In this document: positions 9,972-28,083 of the stretch, piece by piece
Layout: every line of letters begins with the position of its first letter
How positions within the stretch are numbered: position 1 is the stretch's first letter
From: Escherichia coli
Lineage (GTDB): Bacteria; Pseudomonadota; Gammaproteobacteria; Enterobacterales; Enterobacteriaceae
Length of the DNA: 64,000 nucleotides
Assembly (NCBI RefSeq): GCF_051903065.1
Contig: NZ_CP178438.1
Direction: 5' to 3' (one strand)
Notes under the pieces: generated by a model
Seen by the model: only the letters and a program-made list of their open reading frames with translations
What the model was told of the DNA's origin: nothing
Databases searched by the model: none
Program-made: the position numbers and the translations under genes

Positions 9972-10334
9972 TTAATGACCTGCTGCGCGGAGTTTTCCGT
10001 CAGGTTCACCGGCAAGAGTCAGTAATTGTCCCTGGTCTTCCTGCAGAATAGTCAGGCGACCACCGCGATTGACATACATCGGCGTTTCGGTGGTGTCTTC
10101 TTCGGAAATTTTCCCGCGGTTAGTCGGGCGAACATATGAGAGTTTGTGTTTGATTTTCACACGGTTCTCATCAAATGGTTCGATTTCCAGGTTGAGTGAG
10201 ACCTTACCTTTGGTTTTCGTGTTCATCACACCGGAAGCGACTTCACTGAGAACTGCGCCGATTTTGGTTTCAAATACGCCGCCGTCCAGCTCCCCGATAA
10301 ATTCCTGCACGTTGGTACTGCGTTCGCTAGCCAT
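9972..10334 (-). CDS. hypothetical phage early protein (120 aa, YfdP-like)
   Basis: Real start taken at the internal Met (MASERSTNVQEF...) preceded by GAGGAG; the track ORF was extended upstream across a hairpin region. Confidence 0.55.
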   Translation of the reverse strand: MASERSTNVQEFIGELDGGVFETKIGAVLSEVASGVMNTKTKGKVSLNLEIEPFDENRVKIKHKLSYVRPTNRGKISEEDTTETPMYVNRGGRLTILQEDQGQLLTLAGEPDGKLRAAGH

Positions 10335-10942
10335 TTTGCTGCTCCTCATCATATCGACCCTGCAAGGTCGGTTGGTTTCTCCACAAAACAGAGAAGAACA
10401 CCTGCGGTGGTAGCCGCCCGGATGGATTGGGTTATGAGCCCGTCGTCCGGTGATGCTCTTCTCTGTTTTGTAAAAAGAGCGGTACCAGCCGGAAGCAAGT
10501 GTACAAACTGGTACCGCCAAAGCAGTGGCTGTTGTGGTGGGGTTGTCACTCAGGCGTATGGTCAACCTGACAATCCGGTGTCCTCAACGGGGAAAGAGTA
10601 ACCCCGCCATACTTACCGCCGCGCCATTTCGCGGATTACCACAACGCTGAGAGCACTTAGCCAGTTACGGCACCACACTTTGTCGAGGTTCCATAAATGC
10701 CCTCATCGTTGCACCCTGGTCTCTTCCCAGGCGTCAAACCGAATCGCCACGCTGGTTAGGCGTCTTATCAGCATCCTCATTGACTTGCACATTCCGGCTA
10801 CCTGGTTTGTTTGCCCGAGCAAGGAGTGGATTGTCCCCTTTAACGTCCCCAGACCGCTAACGACGCATGTGCCATACGCCGTGTTACAACCAAATTTTGT
10901 CAGGACCTTGTTTGTTGGTCTGGAAAGAAAGATAAAATGAAA

Positions 10943-10980
10943 TTGCGTAACGTGCAAGTATTTTATTGCGAGATATGCAA
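10943..10980. promoter_or_regulatory. putative OL operators / pL region
   Basis: Two TTGC-N7-GCAA palindromes (TTGCGTAACGTGCAA 10943-10957; TTGCGAGATATGCAA 10966-10980), the same motif as at the cI/cro intergenic region. Confidence 0.5.
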
Positions 10981-10994
10981 TAGTGTGAGTAATG

Positions 10995-11016
10995 AAAAGC
11001 CACCTTCTGGTGGCTA
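10995..11016 (-). terminator. terminator downstream of the repressor gene
   Basis: GCCACC-ttct-GGTGGC hairpin (11000-11015) followed by a U-run on the minus strand. Confidence 0.55.
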
Positions 11017-11036: not shown

Positions 11037-11729
11037 TTAATTGTGTCGCTTAAGGGTTTGTGACTGACTGATTAAGACCTTTCCAAAGACCATAAACCGG
11101 TGTTCGTTTTCGCTGGTAATTCCCCATTCGCGGTAAATCTGATTATCAGAAATTACCAGCAGTTTATCAGGTATCATTTGCAGTCGTTTGACGTAAATTT
11201 TATCATCAAAACCAAATACATATATACCATCCCCATCAAACTGATTGATACTGATATCAACGAAGATGAGATCTCCTGGCTCAATGGTTGGACACATACT
11301 GTCCCCACGAACGTTGATAACTTTAATGTGATTTGCTGGTCGTCCACCAAACATCGATACAGCATTATCAGTTCTGTATTCAATGGCATGAATCACATCA
11401 ATGACATCACCGCCCTGGATAAGGCCATTTCCCGCACTGGCACTGACATCCAGCATTTCAATACGGAATACATCCTTCACCTGCGCAACATCCTCACTAA
11501 TACTGTTTTTACATACAGTATTACTTTTGAGGTCTGAGGTAAAGAGATCAGCAATATCAACACCTAAGCTCCTGGCAATATTACTCAGGGCTTGTTCAGT
11601 GAATTGTTTCTGCTTACCTGTTTCGAGGCGCGAGATATTCGCCGCATCCACTCCTATTGCTTCAGCGAGATCGGCGATTTTCATGTTCTTCGCCTGGCGA
11701 AGTTGTCTGACTCGATTTCCTATGTTCAT
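11037..11729 (-). CDS. CI-like prophage repressor (HTH_XRE + S24 LexA-like peptidase domain)
   Basis: 230 aa; N-terminal IGNRVRQLRQAKNMKIADLAEAIGVDAANISRLETGK (HTH); C-terminal ..VRGDSMCPTIEPGDLIFVD...KRL (Ser/Lys autocleavage-type motifs). Confidence 0.85.
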   Translation of the reverse strand: MNIGNRVRQLRQAKNMKIADLAEAIGVDAANISRLETGKQKQFTEQALSNIARSLGVDIADLFTSDLKSNTVCKNSISEDVAQVKDVFRIEMLDVSASAGNGLIQGGDVIDVIHAIEYRTDNAVSMFGGRPANHIKVINVRGDSMCPTIEPGDLIFVDISINQFDGDGIYVFGFDDKIYVKRLQMIPDKLLVISDNQIYREWGITSENEHRFMVFGKVLISQSQTLKRHN

Positions 11730-22494: not shown

Positions 22495-24224
22495 GCCGGA
22501 AATCTTACCCCAACGTAAATGCTGCCAATCAGTATGCCCGTGATGTCGTGCGCGGAAAGATTGTGGCCTGCCAGTTTGTGATTCAGGCCTGCCAGCGCCA
22601 TCTTGATGACCTGATGGAGGAAAAAAGTAAGTCGTTTCGTTACCGCTTCGACAAGGACCTGGCTGAACGGGCCGCGAAATTTATTCAGCTGTTGCCGCAC
22701 ACCAAGGGTGAGTGGGCATTTAAACGGATGCCCATCACGCTGGAGCCGTGGCAGCTATTTGTGATCTGCTGTGCGTTTGGCTGGGTCAATAAAGGCACCC
22801 GGTTGCGCCGCTTCCGGGAGGTGTATACCGAAATTCCCCGTAAGAACGGCAAATCGGCAATCTCTGCCGGTGTTGCCCTGTATTGTTTTGCCTGTGATAA
22901 CGAGTTCGGCGCGGAAGTGTATTCCGGTGCCACGACGGAGAAACAGGCATGGGAAGTCTTTCGTCCGGCACGACTGATGTGTAAACGCACACCCATGCTG
23001 ACGGAAGCGTTCGGGATTGAGGTTAACGCCTCAAACATGAACCGTCCGGAGGATGGTGCGCGGTTTGAACCGCTGATCGGTAACCCCGGTGATGGTTCAT
23101 CACCCCACTGTGCCGTGGTGGATGAATATCACGAGCACGCCACAGATGCGCTTTACACCACGATGCTTACCGGGATGGGGGCGCGACGCCAGCCACTGAT
23201 GTGGGCCATTACCACCGCCGGGTACAACATTGAGGGGCCGTGCTACGACAAACGGCGGGAAGTCATCGAGATGCTCAACGGCTCGGTGCCCAACGATGAA
23301 CTGTTCGGGATCATCTATACCGTTGACGAAGGCGACGACTGGACCGACCCGCAGGTACTTGAAAAAGCTAACCCGAATATCGGTGTGTCGGTTTATCGCG
23401 AGTTTTTGTTAAGCCAGCAGCAACGTGCGAAAAATAACGCCCGTCTGGCAAACGTCTTTAAAACAAAACACCTCAATATCTGGGTGTCGGCGCGTTCGGC
23501 GTATTTCAACCTGGTGAGCTGGCAGAGCTGCGAGAATAAATCACTGACCCTTGAGCAGTTTGAGGGGCAGCCGTGCATTCTGGCCTTTGACCTGGCGCGT
23601 AAGCTGGATATGAACAGTATGGCGCGACTTTATACCCGCGAGATTGACGGTAAAACGCATTACTACAGTGTGGCTCCGCGCTTCTGGGTACCGTATGACA
23701 CGGTGTACAGCGTCGAGAAAAATGAAGATCGCCGGACAGCCGAACGCTTTCAGAAATGGGTGGAAATGGGCGTTCTGACCGTTACCGATGGTGCGGAGGT
23801 GGATTATCGCTACATCCTCGAGGAGGCCAAAGCGGCGAACAAAATCAGCCCGGTCAGTGAGTCACCCATCGACCCCTTCGGGGCGACCGGGCTGTCGCAT
23901 GACCTTGCGGATGAAGACCTGAACCCCATCACCATCATTCAGAACTACACCAACATGTCCGACCCGATGAAAGAGCTGGAAGCGGCAATTGAATCGGGGC
24001 GTTTTCATCATGACGGCAATCCCATCATGACCTGGTGTATCGGCAACGTGGTCGGCAAAACCATTCCGGGTAACGATGATGTGGTGAAGCCCGTCAAGGA
24101 GCAGGCGGAAAACAAAATTGATGGTGCAGTTGCGCTGATTATGGCGGTTGGCAGAGCCATGCTGTACGAGAAAGAAGACACGCTGTCTGATCACATTGAG
24201 TCCTACGGGATCCGCTCGCTTTAA
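22491..24224 (+). CDS. terminase large subunit
   Basis: 577 aa; size, position and ATPase/nuclease-like organisation. Confidence 0.8.
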
Positions 24225-24235
24225 CTGAGGTAATT

Positions 24236-24418
24236 ATGATCATGCTGATTCTCGCGCCTCTGGTGGGCGTGCTGGGTGCGCTTTTGCTGGCGTATGGTGC
24301 CTGGCTGATTTATCCCCCGGCTGGGTTTGTTGTTGCCGGGGCGCTGTGCCTGTTCTGGTCGTGGCTGGTGGCGCGATATCTCGACCGTACACAGCCGTCT
24401 GTCGGCGGAGGTAAATAG
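24236..24418 (+). CDS. small membrane protein (hypothetical)
   Basis: 60 aa with two hydrophobic segments, between terminase and portal. Confidence 0.35.
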
Positions 24419-25659
24419 TGTTCTTTTCGGGATTATTTCAACGAAAAAGTGACGCACCGGTGACCACGCCAGCAGAGCTGGCGGATGCTATCGGGCTGTC
24501 ATATGACACCTATACCGGAAAGCAGATCAGCAGCCAGCGGGCCATGCGACTGACGGCGGTTTTTTCCTGCGTCAGGGTGCTGGCGGAGTCGGTCGGGATG
24601 TTGCCCTGCAACCTGTATCACCTGAACGGCAGCCTGAAACAGAGAGCCACCGGCGAACGTCTGCATAAGCTGATCTCCACGCATCCCAATGGCTATATGA
24701 CGCCGCAGGAGTTCTGGGAGCTGGTGGTCACCTGTCTGTGCCTGCGGGGAAACTTTTACGCCTACAAAGTGAAAGCATTTGGCGAAGTGGCTGAACTGCT
24801 GCCCGTCGATCCCGGCTGTGTGGTACCGAAGCTTAACAGTAGCTGGGAGCCGGTCTATCAGGTCACATTCCCGGATGGCTCCACGGATGTACTGAGCCAG
24901 GAGGATATCTGGCATGTGCGCACGCTGACGCTGGACGGATTGGTGGGGCTGAATCCCATCGCCTATGCCCGCGAGGCAATATCGCTGGCGGCAGCGACCG
25001 AAGAGCACGGGGCCAGACTGTTCAGCAATGGCGCGGTGACGTCGGGTGTGTTGCGTACAGAGCAGACGCTGTCGGATCAGGCTTATGAGCGCCTGAAGAA
25101 AGATTTTGAGGAGCGTCACACCGGGCTTGGCAATGCTCACCGCCCGATGATCCTTGAGATGGGGCTGGACTGGAAGTCGATGGCGCTGAACGCCGAGGAC
25201 AGCCAGTTCCTGGAAACCCGCAAGTTTCAGCTTGAAGAAATCTGTCGTCTGTTCCGGGTGCCGTTGCACATGGTGCAGAACACCGATCGCGCCACCTTCA
25301 ACAATATCGAAGAGCTGGGGCTGGGATTTATCAACTATTCACTGGTGCCGTATCTGACCCGCATCGAACAGCGGATCAACACCGGACTGGTACGAAAAAG
25401 TAAGCAGGGCGTTTATTACGCCAAATTTAACGCCGGGGCGTTACTGCGCGGGGATATGAAGTCCCGTTTTGAAGCCTACGCCACCGGGATCAACTGGGGA
25501 ATTTACTCTCCCAATGACTGCCGCGACCTGGAAGATATGAATCCGCGTCCCGGTGGTGATGTCTATCTCACACCGATGAACATGACCACGAAACCCTCCG
25601 ATGGCAGTAAAGCCGGTAAGCAGAAGGATAACGCCAATGCAGACGAAACAACGTCTTGA
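24418..25659 (+). CDS. portal protein (HK97-like)
   Basis: 413 aa, GTG start; position after terminase, before protease. Confidence 0.75.
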   Translation: MFFSGLFQRKSDAPVTTPAELADAIGLSYDTYTGKQISSQRAMRLTAVFSCVRVLAESVGMLPCNLYHLNGSLKQRATGERLHKLISTHPNGYMTPQEFWELVVTCLCLRGNFYAYKVKAFGEVAELLPVDPGCVVPKLNSSWEPVYQVTFPDGSTDVLSQEDIWHVRTLTLDGLVGLNPIAYAREAISLAAATEEHGARLFSNGAVTSGVLRTEQTLSDQAYERLKKDFEERHTGLGNAHRPMILEMGLDWKSMALNAEDSQFLETRKFQLEEICRLFRVPLHMVQNTDRATFNNIEELGLGFINYSLVPYLTRIEQRINTGLVRKSKQGVYYAKFNAGALLRGDMKSRFEAYATGINWGIYSPNDCRDLEDMNPRPGGDVYLTPMNMTTKPSDGSKAGKQKDNANADETTS

Positions 25660-26287
25660 TGTACCGCTGAGTCTGAAATCTGTCAGTGACTCCGGTGAGT
25701 TTGAAGGGTATGGCTCCGTCTTTGGTGTAAAGGACAGCCACGATGATGTGGTGATGTCCGGGGCATTTGCTGCTTCCCTGCGGGCGTGGAGTGACAGAAA
25801 AGCGTTACCTGCGCTGCTCTGGCAGCACCGCATGGATGAACCCATCGGTGTTTACACCGAAATGAAGGAAGACGATGTCGGGCTTTACGTCAGGGGACGG
25901 TTGCTTATTGATGATGATCCCCTCGCAAAACGCGCACATGCACACATGAAGGCCGGTTCGTTAACCGGCCTTTCTATTGGGTACGTCCTGAAAGACTGGG
26001 AATACGACCGGAGCAAAGAAGCCTTTCTGCTGAAAGAAATCGACCTCTGGGAAGTCAGCCTGGTGACGTTCCCGTCTAACGACGAGGCGCGGATCAGCGA
26101 CGTCAAGAACGCACTGGCCCGCGGGGAAATCCCCGAACAGAAAAAAATCGAAAGAGTCCTGCGTGATGTCGGACTCTCCCGTACCCAGGCCAAAGCATTC
26201 ATGGCCGGGGGCTATGGCGCACTGTCCCTGCGCGACGCTGAGGATGTGGGCTCTGCACTGAATGCACTGAAAAATCTGAACTTCTAA
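25637..26287 (+). CDS. prohead protease (HK97-like)
   Basis: Start at the internal ATG (MQTKQRLDVPLSLKSVSDSGEFEGYGSVFGV..); typical N-terminus of caudoviral prohead proteases. Confidence 0.75.
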   Translation: MQTKQRLDVPLSLKSVSDSGEFEGYGSVFGVKDSHDDVVMSGAFAASLRAWSDRKALPALLWQHRMDEPIGVYTEMKEDDVGLYVRGRLLIDDDPLAKRAHAHMKAGSLTGLSIGYVLKDWEYDRSKEAFLLKEIDLWEVSLVTFPSNDEARISDVKNALARGEIPEQKKIERVLRDVGLSRTQAKAFMAGGYGALSLRDAEDVGSALNALKNLNF

Positions 26288-26301
26288 TCAGGAGAAATAC
26301 G

Positions 26302-27507
26302 ATGGCGGTTGATATTAAAGATGTGGAACAGGTCGCGCAGGAGCTGCAGCAGAAGTTTGACGACTTCAAGGCAAAGAACGACAAGCGCGTGGATGCGATT
26401 GAGCAGGAAAAAGGCAAACTTGCCGGACAGGTGGAAACCCTGAACGGGAAACTCAGCGAGCTGGAAAATCTCAAAAGCGACCTTGAAAAAGAGCTGCTTG
26501 AGCTGAAACGTCCGGCAGGTGGTGCGCAAAATAAACTGGCCACGGAGCATAAAGAGGCTTTTGTGGGTTTCCTGCGTAAAGGCCGTGAAGACGGTCTGCG
26601 CGATCTGGAGCGTAAGGCATTGCAGGTGGGTACCGATGAAGACGGTGGCTACGCCGTGCCGGAAGAACTGGATCGCAACATTCTCAACCTGCTGAAAGAT
26701 GAAGTGGTGATGCGTCAGGAAGCCACGGTGATCACCGTTGGCGGTTCCGACTACAAAAAACTGGTGAATCTGGGCGGCACGGCTTCCGGATGGGTGGGGG
26801 AAACTGATACGCGATCCCAGACTGCCACCTCCAGACTGGAGCTGATTGAACCTCTCATGGGGGAAATCTACGGCAACCCGCAGGCCACCCAGAAAATGCT
26901 GGACGATGCCTTCTTCAACGTGGAGGGCTGGATCAACAGCGAGCTGGCAACCGAATTTGCCGAACAGGAAGAAATTGCCTTTACCTCCGGCGATGGCACC
27001 AAGAAGCCGAAAGGGTTCCTGGCGTATGAATCCACGGATGAAACCGACAAGGTCCGGGCGTTTGGCAAACTTCAGCATATTGTATCCGGTGAAGCGACTG
27101 CGGTGACCGCAGACGCCATTATCAAACTGATTTACACGCTGCGTAAGGCACATCGCACCGGTGCGAAGTTCATGATGAACAACAACAGCCTGTTTGCCAT
27201 TCGTCTGCTGAAAGACACCGAGGGTAACTATCTGTGGCGTCCGGGGCTGGAACTGGGGCAGCCGTCCTCTCTGGCGGGTTACGGTATCGCTGAAAACGAG
27301 CAGATGCCGGATATCGCCGCGGATGCGAAAGCCATTGCATTTGGTAACTTCAAACGGGGTTACACCATCGTTGACCGTATCGGCACCCGCATTCTGCGTG
27401 ACCCGTACACCAATAAACCGTTTGTCGGTTTTTATACCACCAAGCGCACCGGCGGGATGCTGGTCGATTCGCAGGCCATCAAACTGCTGAAGATTGCAGC
27501 GGCGTAA
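26302..27507 (+). CDS. major capsid protein (HK97-like)
   Basis: 401 aa with coiled-coil N-terminal delta-like region (MAVDIKDVEQVAQELQQKFDDFKAKNDKRVD..) then capsid body. Confidence 0.8.
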   Translation: MAVDIKDVEQVAQELQQKFDDFKAKNDKRVDAIEQEKGKLAGQVETLNGKLSELENLKSDLEKELLELKRPAGGAQNKLATEHKEAFVGFLRKGREDGLRDLERKALQVGTDEDGGYAVPEELDRNILNLLKDEVVMRQEATVITVGGSDYKKLVNLGGTASGWVGETDTRSQTATSRLELIEPLMGEIYGNPQATQKMLDDAFFNVEGWINSELATEFAEQEEIAFTSGDGTKKPKGFLAYESTDETDKVRAFGKLQHIVSGEATAVTADAIIKLIYTLRKAHRTGAKFMMNNNSLFAIRLLKDTEGNYLWRPGLELGQPSSLAGYGIAENEQMPDIAADAKAIAFGNFKRGYTIVDRIGTRILRDPYTNKPFVGFYTTKRTGGMLVDSQAIKLLKIAAA

Positions 27508-27556
27508 TCATTCAGGGGCGCGGAACCGCGCCCCCTGTTCTGACGGGTGAAGAATC

Positions 27557-27757
27557 ATGATCCTGAAACAAGATCTGAAATGGTCACCGGACGGTATGCG
27601 TGTTGAGGTCATTCGGGCCGGTGAGTATGACGACGGGACGCTTCCTGCCCGGGTGCAGGAGATTGCACTTCAGGCCGGGTTAGCAGAGCGCGGAACCAGT
27701 ACAAAAAGCAGTAAAGCAGCAAAAGAGAAAAAAGCCACGACCAGTAAAGAGGGCTGA
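27557..27757 (+). CDS. small hypothetical head-region protein
   Basis: 66 aa, Lys/Ser-rich C-terminus. Confidence 0.35.
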   Translation: MILKQDLKWSPDGMRVEVIRAGEYDDGTLPARVQEIALQAGLAERGTSTKSSKAAKEKKATTSKEG

Positions 27758-27759
27758 GT

Positions 27760-28083
27760 ATGCTTCTGACAATGGAAGAGATTAAAGCCCAACTCCGGCT
27801 GGATGAGGATTTCGATGCTGATGACCGCCATCTGCAACTGCTGGCCTGTGCGGCGCAAAAGCGGACGGAAACGTATCTGAACCGGAAGCTCTATACACCG
27901 GATGAAACCATTCCGGACAGCGATCCGGACGGGCTGCACCTGCCGGATGATATTCGTCTGGGGATGCTGATGCTTATCAGCCATTTTTACGAAAATCGCT
28001 CGTCGGTTACAGACGTTGAGAAAATGGAGTTGCCAATGAGCTTTAACTGGCTTGTCGGCCCGTACAGGTACTTTCCGCAATGA
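27760..28083 (+). CDS. head-tail connector (gp6-like)
   Basis: 107 aa; position and size. Confidence 0.55.
   Translation: MLLTMEEIKAQLRLDEDFDADDRHLQLLACAAQKRTETYLNRKLYTPDETIPDSDPDGLHLPDDIRLGMLMLISHFYENRSSVTDVEKMELPMSFNWLVGPYRYFPQ

What the first reader, a model, noticed from the sequence alone, without database searches (positions are those of the whole stretch)
10335..10942. ~600-nt apparently non-coding, highly structured leader between the putative pL/OL and the first early-left gene
Between the OL-like operators (10943-10980) and the first convincing leftward gene (start 10334) there is no credible ORF. The DNA contains a perfect 15-nt inverted repeat with a 58-nt spacer (ACAAAACAGAGAAGA at 10383-10397 and TCTTCTCTGTTTTGT at 10456-10470) and a second inverted repeat (GGTACCAG...CTGGTACC, 10481-10515). 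In lambdoid phages this location holds nut sites and an antiterminator gene or, in HK022-like phages, cis-acting put RNAs. No arginine-rich N-like ORF is evident, so an RNA-based antitermination element, a processing site or an sRNA is plausible.
Basis: partly seen in the sequence, partly recalled or inferred. Interest (0 to 1): 0.6.

Follow-up and report, generated by a model that had tools for sequence, protein, structure and literature searches.

The report
Stacked structured RNAs after phage pL
The 600-base "empty" gap after this prophage's repressor-controlled early promoter is a string of conserved folded RNAs: an apparently undescribed pseudoknotted RNA present in about a third of complete E. 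coli genomes, a DicF-like small regulatory RNA with its own terminator, and a long hairpin that copies the initiator-tRNA anticodon loop.

Summary
Both inverted repeats exist, with one arm off by one base. No reading frame is conserved, and the leftward (minus-strand) RNA folds better than shuffled sequence.

The region is not a nut or put leader. It is a mosaic of four RNA modules transcribed leftward from pL:
- **Module A (about 10901-10693).** A roughly 190-nt RNA with four covarying helices, an H-type pseudoknot and an invariant 19-mer. It has no Rfam match and I found no literature on it. It occurs in more than 120 viral contigs, phage P1, Uetakeviruses and 1832 of 5426 complete E. coli genomes, and is never annotated.
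- **A DicF-type sRNA (10647-10473).** Its 5' scaffold is 89% identical to the Qin pre-DicF region and is pseudoknotted. It has a different seed and a strong intrinsic terminator. It is a variant of the published sRNA-17.
- **Hairpin C (10471-10383).** Its stem covaries and its apex is an exact 13-mer of the initiator-tRNA anticodon arm.
- **The yfdP ribosome-binding region.**

The published sRNA-17 primers show that module A and the sRNA are co-transcribed, which argues against the claimed internal promoter. Module A's function is unknown. My best guess, about 0.35, is a cis-acting read-through element; a trans-acting stable RNA is the main rival.

The parts
10927..10989 (-). Early-left promoter (pL) with OL operators. 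One candidate is -35 TTGCAC (10957-10952) with -10 TATCTT (10934-10929). The alternative is -35 CTCACA (10989-10984) with -10 TAAAAT (10965-10960). Operator palindromes TTGCG..N..GCAA lie at about 10943-10958 and 10966-10982.
   Evidence: The consensus scan is. The TTGCAC/TATCTT arrangement, with TTGCG..CGCAA operators, recurs directly upstream of module A in other immunity types. Transcription initiation has not been shown experimentally.
10693..10901 (-). Module A, a conserved pseudoknotted RNA of about 190 nt.
- P1: 10881-10875 / 10867-10861, loop UGGCACA.
- P2: 10853-10849 / 10805-10801.
- Invariant 19-mer GGUAGCCGGAAUGUGCAAG: 10802-10784.
- P4: 10763-10760 / 10752-10749.
- Pseudoknot AACC/GGUU: 10757-10754 / 10740-10737.
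- P5: 10731-10727 / 10719-10715, loop GAAGAGA.
   Evidence: The covariance model R1 scores 164 bits, E = 3.6e-54. On 100 distinct sequences, 92.1% of cells pair against 31-43% for slid controls, and 18 pairs show double changes. The 19-mer is invariant in 18 hits chosen with an independent pattern. There is no Rfam match.
10648..10714 (-). 3' tail of module A and the junction AGUGCUCUCAGC|GUUGUGG. This boundary is conserved, and beyond it the downstream 'cargo' RNA differs between phages.
   Evidence: Alignment A1. At the same junction, Uetakeviruses and a Klebsiella phage carry a tRNA-Arg, and mEp460/RS218 carry sRNA-17.
10473..10647 (-). DicF-type sRNA of about 175 nt, a variant of sRNA-17.
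- Closing stem: 10645-10638 / 10538-10531.
- S1: 10634-10630 / 10623-10619.
- S2: 10611-10607 / 10561-10557.
- S3: 10606-10602 / 10592-10588.
- S4 (pseudoknot): 10575-10568 / 10548-10541.
- Single-stranded seed: about 10530-10519 (AGCCACUGCUUU).
- Terminator hairpin: 10518-10478.
- U-tract: 10477-10473.
   Evidence: The scaffold is 89% identical to the sequence immediately upstream of DicF in Qin. Its structure is supported on 47 sequences: 92.7% paired and 12 pairs with double changes. The 3' end matches the sRNA-17 full-length primer 32/32. The fold is.
10383..10471 (-).
   Evidence: z = -6.6. The lower stem keeps pairing through sequence changes in L101, L012, L100, L122 and L128, and UCAUAACCC is invariant in 25 variants. 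The tRNA-fMet sequence was verified in 5425 E. coli genomes.
10335..10382 (-). yfdP translation-initiation region: a small hairpin at 10372-10353, the Shine-Dalgarno GAGGAG at 10347-10342, and the AUG at 10334. In the minimum-free-energy fold the SD pairs with GCUCUU (10480-10475) at the base of hairpin C.
   Evidence: The gene is annotated yfdP in an identical chromosome. The SD occlusion is a prediction only.

Best explanation
The interval is the untranslated 5' part of the early-left (pL) transcript. It consists of independently conserved RNA modules that phages exchange as cassettes.

**Proposed sequence of events.**
1. Transcription starts at the cI-controlled promoter (about 10922-10953).
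2. Module A is made first. It is a compact, pseudoknotted RNA of about 190 nt with an invariant 19-nt segment.
3. A DicF-family sRNA follows. It has a pseudoknotted 5' scaffold closed by an 8-bp stem, a short single-stranded seed, and a strong intrinsic terminator. Most transcripts stop at this terminator.
4. By analogy with the 190-nt DicF, the precursor is cut at the closing-stem junction. This releases a trans-acting riboregulator of about 175 nt, whose seed differs from DicF's. This is the window's version of sRNA-17.
5. Transcripts that read through continue into hairpin C. That hairpin is a likely RNase III substrate and carries an initiator-tRNA anticodon-arm mimic. It probably gates yfdP translation, because the SD can pair with the hairpin's base.

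**Shown.** The modular homology, the covariation-supported folds and the strand are shown here. In the mEp460/RS218 homologue, the RNA ends, the Northern signal and co-transcription of module A with the sRNA are shown experimentally.

**Inferred.** RNase III processing, terminator efficiency, the roles of hairpin C and the function of module A are inferences.

**Module A's function.** For module A I commit, at about 0.35, to a cis-acting element that lets RNA polymerase pass the downstream terminator(s) in these N-less phages. That would make it a functional analogue of put/EAR, not a homologue.
For: **Mosaic structure and homology.**
- Searches show the mosaic.
- Qin DicF lies immediately 3' of the homologous scaffold.
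- DicF's 190-nt form is made by RNase III from the dicBp transcript, with no internal promoter.

**sRNA-17.**
- It was mapped by RACE and Northern in a mEp460-type prophage.
- All of its primers map to mEp460.
- In the window its 3' primer matches 32/32, while the Northern probe does not match.
- Its qRT-PCR amplicon spans window 10520-10895, which is module A plus the sRNA.
- Wild-type yfdP reads were about 0.5 while the sRNA was detectable.

**Folds.** Module A is supported, and module B.

**Non-coding.**

**Context of module A.**
- A promoter with operators lies 6-90 nt upstream, usually after a cI-like gene.
- My crude scan finds a terminator-like hairpin within 450 nt downstream in about 97 of 127 loci.
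- A same-strand ORF usually follows: it is the nearest downstream ORF in 62 loci, starting at a median of +475.
- In 15 representative loci the downstream ORFs include no N-like ORF.

**Hairpin C.**
Against: - There are no expression data for this exact element.
- The sRNA interior differs from the experimentally studied sRNA-17.
- The Rfam DicF model does not match.
- RNase III cleavage is inferred only from Qin.

Against the cis read-through guess for module A:
- Qin reads through the DicF terminator without module A.
- Module A has a single copy, with none near pR.
- In P1 it lies 2.3 kb from Pban, right after tRNA-Ile, with no terminator before ban.
- In Uetakeviruses a tRNA follows it directly, which fits an array of separately processed stable RNAs.
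Confidence: 0.72

Rival explanations
1. Module A is a self-standing, trans-acting stable RNA. It would be released from a polycistronic non-coding array by the processing that frees its tRNA or sRNA neighbours. It would act by binding a conserved host factor or RNA, for example as a decoy or sponge. The invariant 19-mer and the GGA-containing loops are candidate contact sites.
For: - Its neighbours are RNAs that are excised: tRNA-Ile ends 1-2 nt before it in P1, tRNA-Arg starts at its 3' junction in Uetakeviruses and a Klebsiella phage, and sRNAs follow it elsewhere.
- The 19-nt invariance holds across Escherichia, Klebsiella, Citrobacter, Kosakonia and Erwinia, although the phage gene content differs widely. 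This points to a conserved host partner.
- Some loci show module A followed by a terminator only about 100 nt later, like a stand-alone ncRNA gene.
Against: - No discrete module A RNA species has been observed.
- It precedes protein-coding genes on the same strand in most loci.
- No target could be identified here.
Confidence: 0.3
2. The DNA at 10646-10895 is an ArcA-regulated promoter region that drives the sRNA, as proposed for sRNA-17 by Sun et al. 2020. On this view the conservation reflects DNA-level regulation, not RNA structure.
For: The paper reports binding of phosphorylated ArcA in EMSA to exactly this fragment, and oxygen-dependent expression. The primers were mapped.
Against: - Helices covary with G-U pairs on the transcribed strand only.
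- No sigma-70-like site lies on the minus strand inside 10650-10900.
- The authors' own qRT-PCR amplicon begins at 10895, so the RNA they measured already contains this "promoter".
- The EMSA used 20-80 uM protein.
- The homologous DicF has no internal promoter.
- The yfdP increase in the deletion strain is what I would expect from read-through out of the retained CmR cassette.
Confidence: 0.08
3. The interval holds a true homologue of HK022 put, or a nut site used with an unrecognised N-like protein.
For: The position downstream of pL in an N-less lambdoid phage is where put and nut sites lie (established knowledge). Terminators follow.
Against: - There is no boxA within 3 mismatches in the interval, and no CGCTCTTA anywhere in the window.
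- No Arg-rich ORF follows.
- Model R1 finds nothing in HK022 24000-33000 and no second copy in the window.
- The architecture differs: about 190 nt with a pseudoknot, against two stem-loops of about 70 nt.
Confidence: 0.03
4. Small proteins are encoded here, as annotated in some phage records (for example mEp460_036/037 and cdtI gp40).
For: Several phage records call hypothetical ORFs on the plus strand. The plus strand is often stop-free over the 196-nt module A segment I tested: 81 of 100 sequences against 52 of 100 shuffles.
Against: - Insertions and deletions between conserved blocks take all lengths mod 3.
- The variation is compensatory in helices.
- PGAP calls nothing.
- The modules recombine at RNA-domain boundaries.
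Confidence: 0.03

Closest known systems
DicF and the dicBF operon of the Qin prophage (Rfam RF00039; 190-nt and 53-nt forms)
   Same: - The sRNA is embedded in a repressor-controlled, pL-like early transcript.
- The roughly 110-nt domain upstream of the seed is 89% identical.
- The 5' arm of the terminator hairpin is shared (UUUGGCGGUAYCAGUUU).
- The long form starts at the same GUUGUGG junction.
- A U-tract terminator is followed by downstream genes.
   Different: - The seed differs, with no UUUCUGGUGAC, so ftsZ-type targets are not expected.
- The 3' arm of the terminator differs.
- The Rfam DicF model gives no hit.
- Upstream lies module A rather than the ydfABC ORFs.
sRNA-17 of E. coli K1 RS218 / phage mEp460 (Sun et al. 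2020, PMC7719688)
   Same: - Same locus, between cI/pL and yfdP.
- Same module A upstream.
- Same 5' junction.
- Identical last 65 nt or so, covering the seed and terminator.
- That paper lists copies of the window's type as 'degenerative sRNA-17'.
   Different: The roughly 110-nt interior is replaced by the Qin-type scaffold, so the Northern probe mismatches at 22 of 50 positions. The published promoter assignment and the yfdP 'target' are probably artefacts, as argued in the full report.
HK022 put RNAs (and Bacillus EAR): RNA-only processive antiterminators
   Same: The element sits in the 5' leader of an early operon, in phages without N, upstream of intrinsic terminators, and in sense orientation only.
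   Different: There is no detectable sequence or structure similarity. The element is about 190 nt and pseudoknotted, against two stem-loops. It has one copy rather than one per early operon. Activity is untested.
Lambda N-leader RNase III hairpin and T7 early RNase III sites
   Same: A long, nearly perfect hairpin lies between upstream leader RNA and the ribosome-binding site of the first early gene. Pairing that can occlude the SD is predicted.
   Different: There is no sequence relation. Hairpin C has a three-way junction with an initiator-tRNA anticodon-arm mimic. Cleavage has not been shown.
Phage P1 ban operon leader (annotated 'dicF-like region', tRNA genes)
   Same: P1 carries both module B (with its own seed and terminator, right after C1-controlled Pban) and module A (right after tRNA-Ile and before ban).
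   Different: In P1 the two modules are 2.2 kb apart and in the opposite order, and no terminator lies between module A and ban.

Membership tests
DicF (Rfam RF00039) | Match to the DicF covariance model at or above its gathering score of 48 bits | tested here: not met
   No DicF hit at E <= 10 in 10300-11000. The Qin control scores 76.7 bits.
DicF (Rfam RF00039) | 5' seed UUUCUGGUGAC that pairs with ftsZ and other targets | tested here: not met
   The window has AGCCACUGCUUU at the equivalent position.
DicF long form / dicBF-type locus | Lies on the early transcript of a repressor-controlled pL-like promoter and is preceded by the conserved precursor domain of the 190-nt form | tested here: met
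   89% identity over 123 nt to the sequence directly 5' of Qin DicF. The domain's fold is supported by covariation.
DicF long form / dicBF-type locus | Rho-independent terminator forming the 3' end | tested here: met
   13-bp G+C-rich stem at 10518-10478 followed by U5. The 5' arm is shared with DicF.
DicF long form / dicBF-type locus | RNase III- and RNase E-dependent processing | not testable with these tools
   Known only for Qin.
sRNA-17 (Sun et al. 2020) | Same 3' end and terminator, and same locus upstream of yfdP | tested here: met
   The full-length forward primer matches 32/32 at 10473-10504, and the flanking primers match exactly.
sRNA-17 (Sun et al. 2020) | The 193-nt sequence, including the interior detected by the Northern probe | tested here: not met
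   The Northern probe mismatches at 22 of 50 positions and the 5' primer at 12 of 33 in the window. Both match exactly in mEp460.
HK022 put RNA | Sequence or structure similarity to putL/putR | tested here: not met
   Model R1 finds nothing in HK022 24000-33000. This is a one-way test, since no put model was available.
HK022 put RNA | One copy in each early operon (pL and pR) | tested here: not met
   A single R1 hit in the 64-kb window.
HK022 put RNA | Cis-acting suppression of termination | not testable with these tools
   Needs reporter assays or in vitro transcription.
Lambda-type nut site | boxA plus boxB, with an Arg-rich N protein encoded downstream | tested here: not met
   No boxA. 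The first downstream ORFs are YfdP-, ParB-, HD- or Tad2-like, not N-like.
tRNA (for hairpin C) | Cloverleaf recognised by tRNA finders | tested here: not met
   ARAGORN finds no tRNA near the window copy and Rfam gives no tRNA hit. Only the 13-nt anticodon stem-loop is shared.
Any Rfam 15 family (for module A) | Covariance-model match | tested here: not met
   Only chance-level hits.

The most novel reading that the evidence does not exclude
Module A is a new class of phage RNA, used by many N-less temperate phages of Enterobacterales and also by P1 and Uetakeviruses. In this reading it acts through a conserved host machine. It could reprogram RNA polymerase to read through the terminators that follow it, which would make it a third RNA-only processive antitermination system after put and EAR. 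Alternatively it could capture a global host factor as soon as the early promoter fires. Together with exchangeable DicF-type sRNA or tRNA cargo, it would form a mobile 'early non-coding cassette'.
Probability: 0.3. Interest if true: 0.85.

Novelty: new variant of a known kind. Interest (0 to 1): 0.7.

Why it matters
**The sRNA.**
- DicF is one of the few prophage sRNAs with known host effects. This locus shows it belongs to a larger family that shares a pseudoknotted 5' scaffold and swaps seeds.
- The seed swapping suggests that phages diversify riboregulators by exchanging cassettes.
- The analysis also re-reads a published virulence-linked sRNA (sRNA-17) as a processed product of the prophage early transcript.

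**Module A.**
- It is a strongly covarying RNA with a 19-nt invariant segment.
- It sits in a third of complete E. coli genomes, in P1-like plasmids and in several phage lineages.
- It is unannotated and absent from Rfam.
- If it controls read-through, it would answer how the many N-less lambdoid phages express early-left genes. If it titrates a host factor, it is a new immediate-early phage weapon.

**Hairpin C.** An initiator-tRNA anticodon-arm mimic in front of the first early gene is an unexplained and directly testable oddity.

Tried and rejected
- **Rfam.** Scans at permissive E-values gave only chance hits: mir-9412 and the hairpin ribozyme.
- **Put-like homology.** No R1 hit in the HK022 immunity region.
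- **boxA.** Nothing in the interval.
- **Second copy.** No second module A near pR or in Qin.
- **Coding.** Rejected by stop codons in homologues and by indel lengths that are not multiples of three.
- **In-window target for the seed.** Only the locus itself and one chance-level match.
- **Literature.** A full-text search for the 15-nt core of module A's invariant 19-mer (DNA, RNA and reverse complement) returned no paper. A P1/ban/dicF search returned none. The P1 genome paper is not held.
- **RS218.** The chromosome is not in the collection, so mEp460 was used as its proxy.
- **First covariation screen.** It was swamped by clade-correlated columns and was replaced by explicit helix tests with slide controls.
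- **P6.** The helix after P5 was not supported (56.6% paired) and is not claimed.
- **RNAalifold alternative.** Pairing between the P1 loop and the 19-mer cannot be tested, because both segments are invariant.

Full report
**Setting.** The interval lies between a cI-like, S24-type repressor gene (11037-11729, minus strand) and the first early-left gene. The repressor gene ends in an intrinsic terminator at 11015-10998. The first early-left gene is annotated yfdP in a 100% identical E. coli chromosome and is followed by yfdQ, yfdR, an exonuclease and a PrtN-type gene. The prophage belongs to the SfV/mEp460/cdtI group. PGAP annotates nothing in the interval.

**Checking the observation.**
- Both inverted repeats are present.
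- The first repeat extends to 25-nt arms and the second to a perfect 10 bp.
- G+C is 53-55% here, against 37-48% in the flanks.
- The minus-strand RNA folds at -232.7 kcal/mol (z = -3.6). The plus strand folds at -215.4 kcal/mol (z = -2.7).
- Promoter-like hexamers and TTGCG..GCAA palindromes lie at 10927-10989.

**The region is a mosaic.** BLAST against phages and E. coli genomes breaks it into pieces that occur separately elsewhere. Three leads came out of this.
1. Window 10523-10645 is 89% identical to the sequence immediately upstream of DicF in the Qin prophage.
2. Window 10718-10895 is 78% identical to a stretch of the phage P1 ban operon that begins right after tRNA-Ile. P1 also carries an annotated "dicF-like region" right after the C1-controlled Pban promoter, and this matches window 10539-10634.
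3. The literature search found sRNA-17, a 193-nt RNA mapped by RACE and Northern blot in a mEp460-type prophage of E. coli K1 RS218.

**The sRNA (10647-10473).**
- All sRNA-17 primers map exactly to mEp460 (L001 3139-3332, minus strand).
- In the window, the 3' primer matches 32/32 at 10473-10504. The Northern probe (22/50 mismatches) and the 5' primer (12/33 mismatches) do not match.
- The window therefore has the same 3' seed-and-terminator unit and the same 5' junction (GCGUUGUGG). Its interior is replaced by the Qin-type domain, which I call module B.
- On 47 distinct sequences, module B's fold is supported. The fold consists of an 8-bp closing stem, three helices and a crossing helix that makes a pseudoknot. 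92.7% of cells pair, against 32-58% for slid controls, and 12 pairs changed on both sides, against 0-6.
- After the closing stem, different phages carry different single-stranded seeds. Each seed is followed by a terminator hairpin and a U-tract.
- The window's terminator has a 13-bp stem followed by U5. Its 5' arm (UUUGGCGGUACCAGUUU) is nearly identical to DicF's, but the seed is not.
- The Rfam DicF model does not match the window, although it scores 76.7 bits on Qin.
- For Qin, Ragunathan et al. showed three things. DicF comes from the dicBp polycistron, the 190-nt form has an RNase III-made 5' end, and there is no internal promoter.
- The 190-nt form corresponds to module B plus DicF, and its 5' end falls at the same GUUGUGG junction as the RACE 5' end of sRNA-17.

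**Re-reading the sRNA-17 paper.**
- The fragment called the "sRNA-17 promoter" is window 10646-10895, which is module A.
- The qRT-PCR primers used to quantify "sRNA-17" lie at 10874-10895 and 10520-10539. The measured RNA therefore spans module A and the sRNA, which shows co-transcription.
- The consensus scan finds no sigma-70-like site on the minus strand inside module A.
- The deletion strain retained a CmR cassette. In my reading, the 95-fold rise of yfdP is most simply cassette read-through.
- In wild type, yfdP had about 0.5 reads while the sRNA was visible on a Northern blot. This fits an efficient terminator, or an unstable mRNA next to a stable sRNA.

**Module A (10901-10693): structure.**
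- A nine-sequence alignment showed very conserved blocks separated by variable stretches with compensatory changes.
They gave 111 unique cores with identity to the window as low as about 51%.
- On 100 distinct sequences I tested P1, P2, P4, P5 and a pseudoknot in which the P4 loop CACC pairs with a downstream GGUG (AACC/GGUU in the window).
- The result: 92.1% of cells pair, against 31-43% for slid controls. Eighteen pairs changed on both sides, against 3-9. The covariation score is 0.297, against 0.03-0.07.
- Examples of the swaps are G-C to A-U at 60:37, C-G to U-A at 62:37, and C-G to A-U in the pseudoknot at 84:15.
- G-U pairs place the RNA on the leftward strand.
- A covariance model (R1) finds one copy in the window at 164 bits. 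It finds none near pR, none in Qin and none in the HK022 immunity region.

**Module A: distribution.**
- A scan of 100,044 species genomes with an independent pattern, filtered with R1, gave 20 strong hits, all above 135 bits.
- Eighteen of them are in Enterobacterales: Citrobacter, Klebsiella, Kosakonia, Phytobacter, Pseudescherichia, Superficieibacter, Pseudocitrobacter, Erwinia dacicola and E. whittamii. The other two are short MAG contigs labelled Bacillota and Lachnospiraceae.
- I checked 18 of the 20, counting the three identical-scoring Phytobacter hits once. All 18 carry the exact 19-mer, so its invariance is not an artefact of the first search.
- In complete E. coli genomes, module A occurs in 1832 of 5426. 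It has 554 places on plasmids and no annotation under it in any listed record.
- It has no Rfam match, and no paper contains its core sequence.
- It is not coding.

**Module A: context.** Most loci repeat the window's layout:
1. a cI-like gene of 218-239 aa ends about 175-235 nt upstream of the 19-mer;
2. a promoter with operator palindromes of several immunity types lies 6-90 nt upstream of P1;
3. module A follows;
4. a variable cargo comes next, which can be module B plus seed, the sRNA-17 interior, or something unrecognised;
5. a strong terminator-like hairpin follows in about 97 of 127 loci, by my crude scan of the first 450 nt;
6. diverse early genes follow, with no Arg-rich N-like ORF among those I inspected.

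Other contexts:
- In Uetakeviruses (phiV10, SPN1S, Tyrion) and a Klebsiella phage, the unit sits between terL and portal, on the opposite strand to the structural genes. There a tRNA-Arg starts at the conserved 3' junction, followed by terminator-like hairpins and a small accessory gene.
- In P1-like plasmids it lies between tRNA-Ile and a Tad2 anti-Thoeris gene.

**Hairpin C (10471-10383).**
With the yfdP leader it folds at -63.7 kcal/mol, z = -6.6.
- More distant copies keep the long stem through sequence changes, for example CAGAGAAGA/UCUUCUCUG against CACAAGAG/CUCUUCUGUG. They also keep the interior.
- The apical hairpin GGGCUCAUAACCC is an exact 13-mer of the anticodon stem-loop of E. coli initiator tRNA-fMet. 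I verified that tRNA sequence against 5425 genomes. I estimate chance identity at about 1e-4.
- The element is not a tRNA.
- It travels with the yfdP leader and yfdP.
- In the minimum-free-energy fold, the base of the hairpin pairs GCUCUU with the yfdP Shine-Dalgarno sequence.
- By analogy with the lambda N leader (established knowledge), I infer RNase III cleavage and translational gating. Neither is shown.

**How it most likely works.** See the best explanation above. The firm parts are the modular RNA architecture, the strand, the folds and the family relationships. In the homologue, the RNA ends and co-transcription are also firm. The function of module A is open.
- For a cis read-through role:
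  - its position is constant, after a promoter and before terminators and genes;
  - these phages lack N.
- For a trans-acting stable RNA:
  - its neighbours are tRNAs and sRNAs that are processed out;
  - the 19-nt invariance holds across genera.
- The DNA-promoter, put/nut-homologue and coding readings are disfavoured by direct tests.

**Novelty.** The sRNA is a new variant of a known family (DicF/sRNA-17). Copies of the window's type were already listed as "degenerative sRNA-17". Module A and the tRNA-fMet mimic appear to be undescribed in Rfam 15 and in the searchable literature. Subscription-only papers could not be checked.

Noticed in passing
L006 (phage P1 NC_005856) 1235-1385 and 3505-3722: P1's annotated 'dicF-like region' is a full module-B scaffold with its own seed and a strong terminator (GCCCAUCUUCGGGUGGGC followed by U6), directly after C1-controlled Pban. 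Transcripts heading for the tRNAs and ban must read through it. Just after P1's module A there is a DicF-seed-like UUUUCUGGUGA.
   Followed up: partly
L003 (Qin prophage) 2717-2926, minus strand: The region between DicF and dicB gives a sub-threshold match to Rfam STnc100 (34.4 bits against a gathering score of 47, E = 1.7e-5). This suggests another conserved RNA element downstream of DicF. The window has hairpin C at the equivalent place.
   Followed up: no
L004 / L005 (P1-like plasmids of E. coli AR_0128 and O111:H8) about 2085-3190: The order is tRNA-Ile, then module A, then a gene annotated as the Thoeris anti-defence protein Tad2 (DUF2829). A DUF2829 gene also follows the module A and tRNA-Arg unit in Klebsiella phage ST512-KPC3phi13.3 (L010). 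Module A may be linked to accessory or anti-defence cargo.
   Followed up: partly
L007-L010 (phiV10, SPN1S, Tyrion, Klebsiella phage), terL-portal gap: In the terL-portal gap of phiV10, SPN1S and the Klebsiella phage, a leftward unit reads module A, then tRNA-Arg, then two terminator-like hairpins, then a small gene. Tyrion carries module A and the junction motif there, but ARAGORN found no tRNA. Short ORFs are annotated across part of this non-coding stretch in phiV10 (PhiV10p04) and Tyrion (BI095_gp54), and they look spurious.
   Followed up: partly
window 10429-10441 (minus-strand RNA GGGCUCAUAACCC): This is an exact copy of the initiator tRNA-fMet anticodon stem-loop (three G-C pairs plus CUCAUAA), at the tip of hairpin C and about 95 nt upstream of the yfdP start. 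It could be a mimic for a factor that reads the initiator anticodon arm, such as the 30S P site with IF3, MetRS, or VapC-type nucleases. That is my speculation.
   Followed up: partly
PMC7719688 (Sun et al. 2020), mapped to window 10520-10895 and L001 3139-3581: The published "promoter of sRNA-17" is the module A RNA sequence. The qRT-PCR amplicon spans module A plus the sRNA. The deletion strain kept a CmR cassette upstream of yfdP, so I think the reported yfdP/yfdR "targets" are probably polar effects.
   Followed up: yes
L240 and L284 (MAG contigs labelled Bacillota and Lachnospiraceae, 1.7 and 3.1 kb): Full-score module A hits (181 and 166 bits) sit on very short contigs binned to Firmicutes MAGs. 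These are most likely mis-binned enterobacterial phage fragments.
   Followed up: no
window 10475-10487 (minus strand CCGCUCUUUUUACAA): The terminator tail resembles the rrn boxA sequence (GCUCUUUAACAA) with a 2-nt insertion. It was not found by the ungapped boxA search and is not conserved in the Qin or P1 counterparts, so it is probably a coincidence.
   Followed up: partly
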